Positions 40,271 through 48,361 of a stretch of DNA of 64,000 nt are shown piece by piece. Position 1 is the first letter of the stretch; every line of letters starts with the position of its first letter. This DNA comes from Felis catus. Its lineage: Eukaryota. A program made the translations under genes and the position numbers. The stretch spans positions 57,352,001 to 57,416,000 of the forward strand of contig NC_058368.1 of NCBI RefSeq assembly GCF_018350175.1, read 5' to 3'. The notes under the pieces are model-generated. The model was given only the letters and a program-made list of their open reading frames with translations, did no database searches and was not told the DNA's origin.

Positions 40271-40711
40271 TGAAAGGCCCCTGCTTAGCTTAATAACACA
40301 CCCCCACCTTTCCCTACGCAAGACAGGAACAGGTTGTCACATAAATAACGATGACCGCTTTCATCTCGCTTCTGTAAACCTGCTTACGCTCCCAAACCGG
40401 AGGTCCCCTGCCGCTTCGCACCCGGGCTCCAAGTTGCATCTGCCGAGAGAAACTCCATTTCCCAAGCTTTCCCAGGACGAAATTACCCCCAACCCTAACC
40501 ACCACCGAGCAGAGAGCCTACCACCAGCCTGTATGCAAATGTAACTCAAAATGGTATAAAAGACCTGTAACCCCGTATATCGGGGCTCTCCCGCTTTCTA
40601 ACACTGGGGAGCCCTGGTGCACCAGTAAAGACTCTCTGCCGAAATCGGAGTGCCGTGTGGTTCTTTGCGCCAACTCTCATTCCATAGGGCCTAGGAGCTT
40701 GGCTCCTAACA
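40271..40711 (+). repeat. 5' LTR (441 bp)
   Basis: Starts TGAAAGG and ends CCTAACA. Identical to 47921-48361 except G40655 versus A48305. Confidence 0.97.
40533..40561 (+). promoter_or_regulatory. LTR core promoter: octamer ATGCAAAT (40533-40540) and TATA box TATAAAA (40555-40561)
   Basis: Motifs read directly at the expected 3' end of U3 and repeated in the 3' LTR. Confidence 0.75.
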
Positions 40712-40713
40712 TT

Positions 40714-40731
40714 TGGTGCGTTGGCCGGGAA
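40714..40731 (+). promoter_or_regulatory. Primer binding site complementary to the tRNA-Gly(UCC) 3' end
   Basis: TGGTGCGTTGGCCGGGAA, 2 nt after the LTR end, is the reverse complement of TTCCCGGCCAACGCACCA. Confidence 0.88.
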
Positions 40732-40874
40732 GCGAGGGAAGGCAGGAGAACCCCGGCCCCGTCGGTAGATGACTCTCCGGCCCGGGCCACTGACGGACTG
40801 ACTGAAGACAGACTTCTGTGCCTTTGTCTGCACACAGGTATTGTGTTCTATGTTTTGTCTCTGAACTGTGAATT

Positions 40875-40963
40875 CTGAGGCCGGCCGGCCACCTCAGTAG
40901 GAGTGTTGAAGGAGGACAGACGTGTCCTGAACCTTCACACCCCGGCCCCGAGGGACGCCTCGG
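40875..40963 (+). promoter_or_regulatory. Psi packaging/dimerisation region
   Basis: Hairpin CTGAGG..CCTCAG overlapping the palindrome GGCCGGCCGGCC (40879-40890). Two GACG-tetraloop hairpins, AGGACA-GACG-TGTCCT (40913-40928) and CCGAGG-GACG-CCTCGG (40948-40963), match the MLV SL-C/SL-D pattern. Confidence 0.8.
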
Positions 40964-41170
40964 TGGTGCTTGTAGAGGAGAACTGACAAGTTCGTCAGAC
41001 TCCCCAAATCCGAAGGCAGGCCTCCCCTGCCATCTGAATCTGAATACCTGGCCGCGGCTCCTTGGTTGTTGTCTAGTCTGTGTTGTCTGGTCTGTATCGA
41101 CATTGTAGTCATATTCGTGTGTGTGTGTGTAAGTGTGCGTGTGTGGACGCGTGGACAGGACGACACAGCT

Positions 41171-45862: not shown

Positions 45863-45896
45863 CTGTTAATCCACCCTGTCCCTGCACAAACCCAAA

Positions 45897-47885
45897 ATGA
45901 AACCCCCAGCGGGAATGGTCTTTCTGTGGGTCCTCACAAGCTTGGGGGCGGGAATTGGAGCTAAAATTGTCAAAGAGGGGAACCCACATCAGGTTTATAC
46001 CTTGACTTGGCAAATCTACTCCCAGAGCGGGGAAGTTGTCTGGGAGGTCCAAGGTAACCATGCGCTTAATACTTGGTGGCCCCCACTTACCCCTGATTTT
46101 TGCCAGCTGGCAGCTGGATTAGACACTTGGGATATCCCAGCTAGAAGCCCCAAGAACCTGCAGTCCTACATGGGGGAAAGAATCCAGCAGATGACTGCCC
46201 ATGGATGCAGTAGTCCCACTGCCAGATGTAGATTAGCCCAGGCAGAGTTCTATGTCTGTCCTCGAGACAATAGGGATAGGGCCACTGCCCACCGATGTGG
46301 GGGATATGAAGAATATTTCTGCTCGGCATGGGGCTGCGAAACTACTGGCGATGCCTACTGGCAACCTACCTCTTCCTGGGACTTAATCACCATTACAAGA
46401 GGTTACACCAAACCTGACCCCGATGGACACACTTGCTACTATAAAAAGGGCACAGAAGGGTATCATCATTGGATAAGTCCCCTGTCTCTACCTCTTAAGA
46501 TTACCTTTACAGATTCAGGAAAACGGGCTCTCGGATGGCAGACGGGCTATACATGGGGACTCCGATGGTACCTACCGGGAAAAGATAGGGGGATTGTTCT
46601 AAAAATCAAATTAAAAATAGATACAATCACCCAAACCGTAGGTCCCAACCTAGTATTGGCCGATCAAAAAGCTCCGGTCCAGCTAGCCATCCCAGTCCAG
46701 CCACCAAGGGCCCCAACTCAGACACCGGGAATTAACCCTGTTAATTCCACTCTAAGCCCCAGTCTAGGATACCCGACCCCCCCCTCTCGACCGGGCACAG
46801 GAGATAGGCTCCTAAACCTTGTACAAGGGGTATACTTAACTCTCAACCTTACGGCCCCAAATCAAACTCAGGACTGTTGGCTCTGCCTAACGGCTAAACC
46901 CCCTTACTATCAGGGAGTTGCTATAATTGGGAACTTTACTAACCATACGAATGCCCCACTGAGATGTAGCACTACACCTCGACATGGCCTCACTTTAACT
47001 GAAGTCACCGGTCATGGCCTATGTATTGGGAAAATTCCACCCTCACACCAGAATCTCTGTAGTCAGACCATACCATCTGTCAGGCAGGGTCCCTATTATT
47101 TGACCGCTCCCAACGGAACGTACTGGGTCTGTAACACCGGACTCACGCCATGCATCTCGCTCCAGGTACTCAATAATACTGCCGACTATTGCATCCTAAT
47201 TGAACTTTGGCCAAAAATCTTCTACCATGACTCAGAATATATTTATGGCCACTACGAACCCGGCGGCAGATTCCGGAGAGAACCAGTTTCCCTCACCGTA
47301 GCACTGCTCCTAGGGGGATTAACTATGGGAAGTTTAGCAGCTGGCATAGGGACAGGCACCGCAGCTCTCATAGAAACTAATCAGTTCAAGCAGTTACAAA
47401 TCGCTATGCATTCTGACATACAGGCACTAGAAGAATCCATCTCGGCACTAGAAAGATCCCTAACCTCCCTCTCAGAAGTGGTTTTACAAAATCGGAGGGG
47501 ACTTGACCTGTTGTTCTTACAAGAAGGCGGGTTATGTGCTGCCCTCAAAGAAGAGTGCTGCTTCTATGCTGATCACACAGGAATAGTGAGAGACAGCATG
47601 GCCAAGCTGAGGGAGAGACTCAAACAAAGACAAAAGCTGTTCGAATCTCAGCAAGGCTGGTTTGAGGGGTGGTATAACAAATCCCCCTGGTTTACCACTC
47701 TAGTCTCCTCCCTCATGGGCCCTTTAATACTCCTACTATTAATACTGATGTTCGGACCTTGCATCCTCAACCGCTTGGTACAATTCATAAGAGAAAGACT
47801 CTCTGTCATCCAGGCCTTGGTCCTAACTCAACAGTACCACCAACTAAGACAATTTGACGCAGAAAGGCCAGATACAATCGAATGA
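45897..47885 (+). CDS. env: Gamma-type envelope glycoprotein (662 aa), intact
   Basis: Signal peptide, PHQ motif, proline-rich region, CWLC (46875-46886), furin site RFRR (47268-47279), fusion peptide, [22 protein letters not shown]6CC, transmembrane anchor and YHQL tail motif. Confidence 0.96.
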
Positions 47886-47903
47886 AAGGTTTCATTCGAC
47901 GCC

Positions 47904-47920
47904 AAAAGAAAATGGGGGAA
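47904..47920 (+). promoter_or_regulatory. Polypurine tract
   Basis: AAAAGAAAATGGGGGAA directly precedes the 3' LTR. Confidence 0.88.
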
Positions 47921-48361
47921 TGAAAGGCCCCTGCTTAGCTTAATAACACACCCCCACCTTTCCCTACGCAAGACAGGAACAGGTTGTCACATAAATAACG
48001 ATGACCGCTTTCATCTCGCTTCTGTAAACCTGCTTACGCTCCCAAACCGGAGGTCCCCTGCCGCTTCGCACCCGGGCTCCAAGTTGCATCTGCCGAGAGA
48101 AACTCCATTTCCCAAGCTTTCCCAGGACGAAATTACCCCCAACCCTAACCACCACCGAGCAGAGAGCCTACCACCAGCCTGTATGCAAATGTAACTCAAA
48201 ATGGTATAAAAGACCTGTAACCCCGTATATCGGGGCTCTCCCGCTTTCTAACACTGGGGAGCCCTGGTGCACCAGTAAAGACTCTCTGCCGAAATCGGAG
48301 TGCCATGTGGTTCTTTGCGCCAACTCTCATTCCATAGGGCCTAGGAGCTTGGCTCCTAACA
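47921..48361 (+). repeat. 3' LTR (441 bp)
   Basis: Direct repeat of the 5' LTR, preceded by the polypurine tract and followed by the GATG TSD. Confidence 0.97.
48274..48279 (+). terminator. Probable non-canonical polyadenylation signal AGTAAA in R of the 3' LTR (also 40624-40629)
   Basis: No AATAAA follows the TATA box. AGTAAA lies about 70 nt downstream of it, with a GU-rich stretch further on. Confidence 0.65.

What the first reader, a model, noticed from the sequence alone, without database searches (positions are those of the whole stretch)
40271..48361. Very young provirus with intact gag, env and cis signals but a doubly inactivated pol
Seen: gag and env have no stops or frameshifts, and the LTRs, PBS, Psi hairpins, readthrough signal and PPT look intact, while both visible lesions fall in pro-pol. 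Known: cat ERV-DC loci donate env to FeLV-D, and truncated ERV-DC Env (Refrex-1) restricts infection; in other species ERV env (Fv4) and gag (Fv1, transdominant enJSRV) act as restriction factors. Inference: this locus cannot replicate alone but could express Gag and Env, serving as an env donor, a helper-dependent genome or an early-stage restriction locus. Intact ORFs may simply reflect youth, and the locus may be an already catalogued ERV-DC.
Basis: partly seen in the sequence, partly recalled or inferred. Interest (0 to 1): 0.72.

Follow-up and report, generated by a model that had tools for sequence, protein, structure and literature searches.

The report
Young, broken cat ERV-DC provirus
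This is an ordinary, very recent copy of a known cat endogenous retrovirus (ERV-DC group I) whose enzyme gene is broken twice and whose two end repeats share a 109-base deletion; its open gag and env genes likely reflect youth, because about half of its near-identical sister copies in the same genome are in the same state.

Summary
The provirus is real: 40271-48361, 4-bp target duplication, LTRs differing at 1 of 441 bases, open gag (558 aa) and env (662 aa). Pol has a 556-nt deletion (end of protease to first RT aspartate) and an integrase frameshift. It is ERV-DC genotype I; its Env differs from deposited genotype I Env at one residue. (1) The LTRs are not intact: both lack the same 109 bp of U3, a junction found nowhere else in the genome, and both are the low-activity T-type. 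(2) The pattern is not special: 10 of 21 near-identical copies in this genome have gag and env open with pol broken, and their private changes fit neutral drift. Both deletions are single-copy, so no helper-driven spread is seen; 0 of 9 FeLV recombinant Envs checked carry its marker. Best reading: a weak-promoter provirus, likely damaged at or near integration, decaying neutrally. It is probably uncatalogued, but ERV-DC17 is not excluded. Expression was not tested. The scan's earlier notes held nothing on this family. In passing: two env-deleted ERV-DC lineages (17 and 8 copies) did spread.

The parts
40267..40270 (.). Target-site duplication, left copy (GATG); right copy at 48362-48365
40271..40711 (+). 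5' LTR, 441 bp, T-type (low-activity class); TATA box at 40555, poly(A)-signal-like hexamer at 40624
   Evidence: class defined in PMC5923473 and bioRxiv 2024.05.09.593269
40299..40308 (+). Junction of a 109-bp U3 deletion relative to sister LTRs, with 9-nt microhomology; the same junction is in the 3' LTR at about 47950
   Evidence: the junction 31-mer occurs twice in G000, both at this locus
40714..40731 (+). Primer-binding site, complementary to the 3' end of host tRNA-Gly(TCC)
40834..40842 (+). Candidate major splice donor for the env mRNA (consensus match only)
40900..40967 (+). Two GACG-tetraloop hairpins, MLV-type packaging signal (predicted)
40976..41170 (+). Open frame upstream of and in frame with gag, with a hydrophobic stretch; glyco-Gag-like leader (inferred), same length in the 3 sisters checked
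41171..42847 (+). gag, 558 aa, open; private Leu at residue 336 (capsid residue 90, base 42177)
42845..42915 (+). gag UAG and read-through region; no difference from the ERV-DC8 locus
42848..43195 (+). Read-through frame: protease cut after residue 91, then about 25 out-of-frame residues and a stop
   Evidence: RVP profile matched 3-91 of 101
43119..43121 (+). Junction of a 556-nt, frame-shifting pol deletion (about Pol residues 91-276), with 3-nt microhomology; absent from 39 of 39 other scored places
43122..45513 (+). Orphaned pol remainder: RT lacking its N-terminal part, RNase H, integrase N-terminal and core domains
   Evidence: RVT_1 profile matched only 84-205 of 205
45463..45471 (+). 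C-run frameshift that separates the integrase core from its C-terminal domain; the same run has changed length in 3 of 20 sisters
45897..47885 (+). env, 662 aa, open, ERV-DC genotype I; private Arg at residue 396 (base 47082, CpG transition)
47904..47918 (+). Polypurine tract
47921..48361 (+). 3' LTR, 441 bp, same U3 deletion, one CpG transition at 48305

Best explanation
This is a very young, replication-defective ERV-DC genotype I provirus with two pol lesions and a 109-bp U3 deletion in both LTRs; it was likely damaged at or near the reverse-transcription step that made it, is likely transcribed weakly if at all, and likely keeps gag and env open only because too little time has passed. Shown: the anatomy, the family, the single-copy deletions and the state of the sister copies. 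Inferred: a U3 deletion present in both LTRs predates integration, because U3 is copied once from the RNA 3' end (established retroviral biology); 9-nt and 3-nt microhomologies fit template misalignment; integration used enzymes already in the incoming particle. If transcribed, it would make uncleaved Gag and a full-length Env predicted to bind CTR1, but no protease, RT or integrase, so its own particles would be immature.
For: Family: Env 99-100% identical to deposited cat genotype I Envs, about 90% to the 671-aa genotype III type; 8 substitutions from the ERV-DC8 locus L065, identified by both published flanking primers and its 8864-bp length. Youth: 1 of 441 LTR differences; 4 private substitutions in 8.1 kb, range 4-26 among 20 copies; CpG observed/expected 0.4-0.7 against 0.15 in the flanks. 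Ordinary state: 10 of 21 copies have gag+env open and pol broken. Frame-breaking lesions gag/pol/env 3/22/9 against 7.9/16.8/9.3 by length (p=0.10); pol has four homopolymer runs of 7 or more, gag none. Private changes fit neutrality: nonsyn/syn gag 22/5, pol 52/31, env 16/12, p 0.21-0.32. Weak promoter class: T-type in both LTRs; genotype I expression extremely low and 5' LTR partly methylated (PMC5923473). No spread: pol junction in 1 of 40 scored places, U3 junction in 2 places, both here.
Against: Expression, methylation and Env function at this locus were not measured. Gag has fewer lesions than its length predicts (3 against 7.9), although not significantly, and lesions are not all independent. 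Sisters were picked with an env probe, which favours copies that keep env. The effect of the U3 deletion is unknown; it could remove a repressive element. Gene conversion between LTRs, or a deletion in a parent copy's 3' LTR, could also put the deletion in both LTRs. The time of the pol deletion cannot be fixed. Two sequencing runs from different studies hold 5 of 7 sampled words of the 5' junction (one may be the assembly's source), which shows presence in at most two samples and says nothing on frequency.
Confidence: 0.85

Rival explanations
1. It is the catalogued locus ERV-DC17, which is listed with intact gag and env. This concerns identity only and is compatible with the best explanation.
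For: Table 1 of PMC5923473 lists ERV-DC17 as genotype I, 'gag, env' intact, non-productive, and the text puts it among loci without promoter activity. The one Env difference here is a CpG transition that could be a later allele.
Against: This exact Env is not in the protein collection. The five accessions BAM33595, BAM33599, BAM33600, BAM33603 and BAM33604 all lack Arg396; five is also the number of genotype I env loci named in bioRxiv 2021.12.09.471612 (DC2, 8, 14, 17, 19), but which accession is DC17 was not shown. Nine other copies in this genome fit the same description. The Gag look-up is uninformative, since 0 of 8 sister Gags were in the collection either.
Confidence: 0.15
2. It is an early-stage restriction locus: its Gag, uncleavable for lack of protease and altered at a conserved capsid residue, would poison co-assembling particles (enJSRV-like), or its full-length Env would occupy CTR1 (Fv4-like).
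For: The Gag change lies at capsid residue 90, where the other fetched copies (0 of 39 motif hits share it), three primate relatives and the MLV capsid sequence all have another residue. Env residues 1-395 equal the common genotype I Env, whose receptor is CTR1 (PMC9245640).
Against: T-type, U3-deleted LTRs. One private nonsynonymous change per gene is the neutral expectation. Refrex-1 loci are fixed, highly expressed and already block CTR1-dependent entry; full-length ERV-DC env genes are reported as suppressed (PMC9245640). No sign of selection was tested or seen.
Confidence: 0.04
3. It serves as an env donor for FeLV-D recombinants.
For: Genotype I env is the known source of FeLV-D env; this env is open and the packaging region matches its sisters.
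Against: 0 of 9 FeLV-named Envs listed in the cluster carry Arg396 (only part of the 31 members was listed). Twelve sisters in this genome also have a 662-aa env. bioRxiv 2024.05.09.593269 proposes the common ERV-DC8 as a major donor.
Confidence: 0.06
4. It is a helper-dependent genome that is still being copied to new sites.
For: PBS, hairpins, PPT and LTR ends are present. Other ERV-DC derivatives in this genome did multiply after deletion.
Against: Neither deletion junction occurs at any other place in G000, against 17 and 8 copies for the two env-deleted lineages.
Confidence: 0.05

Closest known systems
ERV-DC genotype I proviruses of the domestic cat (ERV-DC8, ERV-DC14; PMC5923473; bioRxiv 2024.05.09.593269)
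   Same: 8 substitutions from the ERV-DC8 locus over 8.1 kb; 662-aa Env one residue from the common form; T-type LTR; same gag-UAG-pol-env layout.
   Different: Replication-defective: 556-nt pol deletion, integrase frameshift, 441-bp rather than 550-bp LTRs; a different insertion site (C1, not C11).
ERV-DC17 (PMC5923473 Table 1)
   Same: Genotype I, gag and env open, pol broken, low-activity promoter class.
   Different: This Env matches none of the deposited genotype I Envs seen; DC17's site, LTR length and lesions could not be read.
Refrex-1 (ERV-DC7, ERV-DC16; genotype II)
   Same: ERV-DC env with a related receptor-binding domain; CTR1 use predicted.
   Different: Refrex-1 is truncated and secreted, fixed in cats and highly expressed; this Env is full length, genotype I, under a T-type LTR, and unchanged from the common genotype I Env at the positions where DC7/DC16 Envs carry known inactivating changes.
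Fv4, Fv1 and transdominant enJSRV (Fv4 Env is hit P0009, 55%; the rest recalled)
   Same: A defective provirus with an open env or gag and a private change in Gag.
   Different: Those loci are shown to be expressed and to restrict; nothing of the kind is shown here.

Membership tests
ERV-DC (feline gammaretroviral ERV) | Simple gag-pol/env genome between LTRs, with gag-pol nearly identical to published ERV-DC | tested here: met
   8 substitutions plus 4 indels against L065, the locus flanked by both published ERV-DC8 primers
ERV-DC genotype I | Env of the genotype I type (662 aa) rather than genotype II, genotype III (671 aa) or BaEV type | tested here: met
   One residue from P0108 (BAM33599 etc.); 90-92% to P0110 and P0002
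ERV-DC genotype I | Entry through CTR1, FeLV-D interference group | not testable with these tools
   Predicted from identity of residues 1-395 with the common genotype I Env (PMC9245640)
ERV-DC T-type LTR subgroup | The low-activity base in the U3 cis element | tested here: met
   Both LTRs; 2 of 20 sisters are A-type
Replication-competent ERV-DC | Open gag-pol and env | tested here: not met
   Read-through frame stops after 115 codons; RT and IN broken
ERV-DC8 locus | Flanked by primers Fe-57S and Fe-54R | tested here: not met
   Both primers match only L065 among 41 sequences scanned
ERV-DC17 locus | gag and env open, pol broken | tested here: met
   shared with 9 other copies
ERV-DC17 locus | Same insertion site and sequence as the deposited record | tested here: inconclusive
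   Record and primary papers not available; Env differs from all deposited genotype I Envs seen
Refrex-1-type restriction factor | Env truncated before TM and secreted | tested here: not met
   Full 662-aa frame with furin-type site, TM and tail
Refrex-1-type restriction factor | Fixed in cats and highly expressed | tested here: inconclusive
   No frequency or expression data obtained; T-type LTR argues against high expression
Gag- or full-length-Env restriction factor (Fv1, Fv4, enJSRV type) | Expressed product that blocks infection | not testable with these tools
   Needs cell assays

The most novel reading that the evidence does not exclude
An uncatalogued ERV-DC locus at the first step of domestication: born with shortened LTRs and no enzymes, it makes an uncleavable Gag altered at a capsid residue conserved out to MLV, which acts as a dominant-negative block on the still-infectious ERV-DC8/DC14-type viruses, a Gag-based partner to Refrex-1.
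Probability: 0.04. Interest if true: 0.6.

Novelty: new member of a known kind. Interest (0 to 1): 0.13.

Why it matters
The locus itself matters little: it is one of at least 21 near-identical genotype I copies in this genome. It has some use as a marker, since its unique junctions allow locus-specific RNA and genotype assays in a family where reads usually cannot be assigned, and its natural U3 deletion is a ready probe of the ERV-DC promoter. The wider point is that this one genome holds far more genotype I proviruses (21 or more) than the 8 tabulated in PMC5923473, 13 of 21 with a 662-aa env, plus two env-deleted lineages that multiplied. If the Gag-restriction reading were true it would be a rare, datable case of domestication in progress.

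Tried and rejected
1) Idea that Arg396 is the known ERV-DC7 cleavage-defect site, prompted by its alignment column number. Rejected: the four genotype II/III-like loci L076-L079 do not have Arg there; the published positions are 407, 427, 429 and 431 (PMC9245640 supplement), where this Env equals the common genotype I form; and column 396 is highly variable among 106 homologues. 2) Idea that shared C-run frameshifts mark a propagated defective clade. Not supported: the groups need 2-3 changes, no better than shuffles, on a tree with only 1 of 19 inner branches well supported. 3) Sequencing-run search with the 5' junction: no RNA holder listed. 18 further runs held 4 of 7 words and 4 held 1 of 7; none was laid, and some words are not locus-specific, so they are not used. 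4) Read-level confirmation of the pol junction, the C-run and the private bases was not obtained. 5) Gag homologue search at E 1e-200 returned only three primate proteins; exact look-ups of this Gag and 8 sister Gags found none, so they say nothing on identity. 6) A pyrimidine-tract scan found no env splice acceptor; the region differs from L065 only by the C-run. 7) Motif scan of the U3 segment missing here gave ETS-, E-box-, MYB- and GATA-like matches, without a chance control; not used as evidence of function. 8) Anai 2012 (PMC3421742), Ito 2015 (PMC4719600), Kuse 2016 (PMC5044828) and 10.1128/JVI.01324-19 are not held. 9) The scan's earlier notes held nothing on this family. 10) No host protein-coding ORF of 150 aa or more was recognised in the window, only L1-like fragments (likeness recalled); short exons were not sought.

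Full report
Observation. The element runs from 40271 to 48361 (8091 bp) in AT-rich host DNA, with GATG duplicated on both sides and two 441-bp LTRs that differ at one base, a CpG transition. gag (41171-42847, 558 aa) and env (45897-47885, 662 aa) are open and carry the expected Pfam domains. The PBS is complementary to the host's own tRNA-Gly(TCC) genes (2 of 13 pattern matches were checked). Two GACG-loop hairpins are predicted in the leader, and the PPT is in place. After the gag UAG the frame runs 115 codons: protease to residue 91, then out-of-frame sequence. The rest of pol lies in two other frames, with RT lacking the first 83 profile positions and the integrase C-terminal domain split from its core.

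Identity. The Env is 99-100% identical to cat genotype I ERV-DC Envs and differs from the commonest deposited form (P0108) at one residue. The window lies on C1, the largest contig of G000, probably chromosome A1 (inference from size). An env probe found 25 places, 21 of them at 99% or more. I fetched the 20 other near-identical copies, the 4 more distant ones and 16 further places from the pol search. L065 is the published ERV-DC8: both primers of bioRxiv 2024.05.09.593269 flank it and it has the stated 8864 bp. Against L065 this provirus has 8 substitutions and 4 indels.

Lesions. (a) A 556-nt, frame-shifting deletion at 43119-43121 removes about Pol residues 91-276: the end of protease and RT through its first catalytic motif; 3-nt microhomology. 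39 of 39 other scored places have the segment (40 of 90 candidates scored). (b) A frameshift in the C-run at 45463-45471; the same run has changed length in 3 of 20 sisters, so it is a slippage hot spot, and an assembly error cannot be excluded. (d) Four private substitutions: 41170 (beside the gag ATG), Gag residue 336, Env residue 396, and 48305. Both LTRs are T-type, the low-activity class (class described).

Is the pattern special? No. Of 21 near-identical copies, 10 have gag and env open with pol broken, 4 have only env broken, 3 (ERV-DC8 among them) have all three open, and 4 have two genes broken; one in-frame 12-nt gag deletion was counted as open. Frame-breaking lesions fall 3/22/9 on gag/pol/env against 7.9/16.8/9.3 by length (p=0.10); pol holds four homopolymer runs of 7 or more, env one, gag none. 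Private substitutions in 20 copies (L065 served as reference) do not depart from a neutral mix in any gene (p 0.21-0.32). Caveats: the copies were picked with an env probe, recurrent indels are not independent, counts are small, and gag does show fewer lesions than its length predicts. One LTR difference gives 0.09-0.5 million years under three recalled rates, with 95% limits from 0.002 to 2.7; PMC5923473 puts nearly all genotype I insertions under 0.2 million years.

How it most likely works. A U3 deletion in both LTRs most simply predates integration, since reverse transcription copies U3 once and duplicates it (established knowledge); short direct repeats at both deletion junctions fit template misalignment (inference). 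The provirus needed none of its own pol to integrate. If it is transcribed, it would give Gag, a short read-through product without a complete protease, and spliced env RNA. Gammaretroviral maturation and TM tail cleavage need the viral protease (recalled), so its own particles would be immature. The Env is predicted to bind CTR1 like other genotype I Envs (PMC9245640); residue 396 is in a variable stretch and is not one of the known Refrex-1 inactivating positions, so the Env probably works if expressed. Expression is probably low: T-type LTR, genotype I RNA extremely low in tissues and partly methylated (PMC5923473), and a further 109 bp of U3 missing, with unknown effect.

Rivals. Helper-dependent spread is not seen: both junctions are single-locus, while two env-deleted ERV-DC lineages in the same genome show what spread looks like (17 and 8 places share a junction). 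As an env donor it is one of 13 copies with a 662-aa env, and 0 of 9 FeLV-named Envs listed carry its marker. The only foothold for a restriction role is the capsid change at a residue shared by the other fetched copies, three primate relatives and MLV; one such change is expected by drift, and it could as well make the Gag inert. ERV-DC17 has the same gene state, but this Env equals none of the deposited genotype I Envs seen and nine sisters fit the description too; I put that identity at about 0.15. Two runs from different studies hold 5 of 7 sampled junction words; one may be the assembly's source.

What I read. PMC5923473: parts 1-3 of 5 of the text, passages, and the figures and table section. 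bioRxiv 2024.05.09.593269: whole text, no supplements. PMC9245640: passages and supplement passages. PMC10878261, bioRxiv 2021.12.09.471612, PMC10968565, PMC9967133: passages. The four primary papers with locus maps and LTR lists were not held, and they or their supplements may already list this site or a short-LTR copy. Searches showed no listing that describes this locus or env-deleted ERV-DC lineages; most listings were seen as titles and abstract openings only. Fv1 and enJSRV are recalled, not read.

Verdict. A real but ordinary, very young, defective ERV-DC genotype I provirus; probably a new member of a known kind. Interest 0.13.

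Noticed in passing
L081, L089, L091-L095 and 10 more places in G000; L082-L088, L090: Two env-deleted ERV-DC lineages: 17 places share one 1547-nt env deletion junction and 8 share a 1496-nt one. The 15 fetched copies sit at separate sites with their own target duplications, LTR pairs differ at 0-4 bases, and most share gag truncations (14 of 15 have a broken gag). This points to recent copying in trans after the deletion. 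No description was found. This is a better lead than the finding itself.
   Followed up: partly
G000: At least 21 genotype I ERV-DC proviruses in one assembly, against 8 genotype I loci in Table 1 of PMC5923473 and 13 loci in all; 165 candidate LTR places (40 scored), some apparently solo LTRs.
   Followed up: partly
L056-L075: Three C-runs, two in pol and one in env, account for 13 of 34 frame-breaking lesions, all length gains, and do not cluster on the tree: recurrent slippage or homopolymer assembly error.
   Followed up: partly
window 40976-41170: A 65-codon open frame with a hydrophobic stretch precedes gag in frame, as in the 3 sisters checked; it looks like a glyco-Gag leader with a non-AUG start (likeness recalled).
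   Followed up: partly
window 40720; L056-L075: The primer-binding site comes in two one-base variants among sisters; this one matches tRNA-Gly(TCC) and is shared with 12 of 20 copies compared with L065.
   Followed up: partly
L078, L079, L077, L076: More distant ERV-DC copies: L078 and L079 have 251- and 297-aa env frames, matching the lengths given for the Refrex-1 loci ERV-DC7 and ERV-DC16; L077 has a 306-aa env frame and 13 LTR differences, a possible further truncated-env locus.
   Followed up: no
window 40100-40270 and 48362-48420: The flanks read like the remains of one MIR element split by the insertion (likeness recalled, not tested).
   Followed up: no
window 10767-14880 and 60881-61360: Decayed L1-like ORF fragments (likeness recalled); a 23-nt tandem duplication at 49527-49572.
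   Followed up: no
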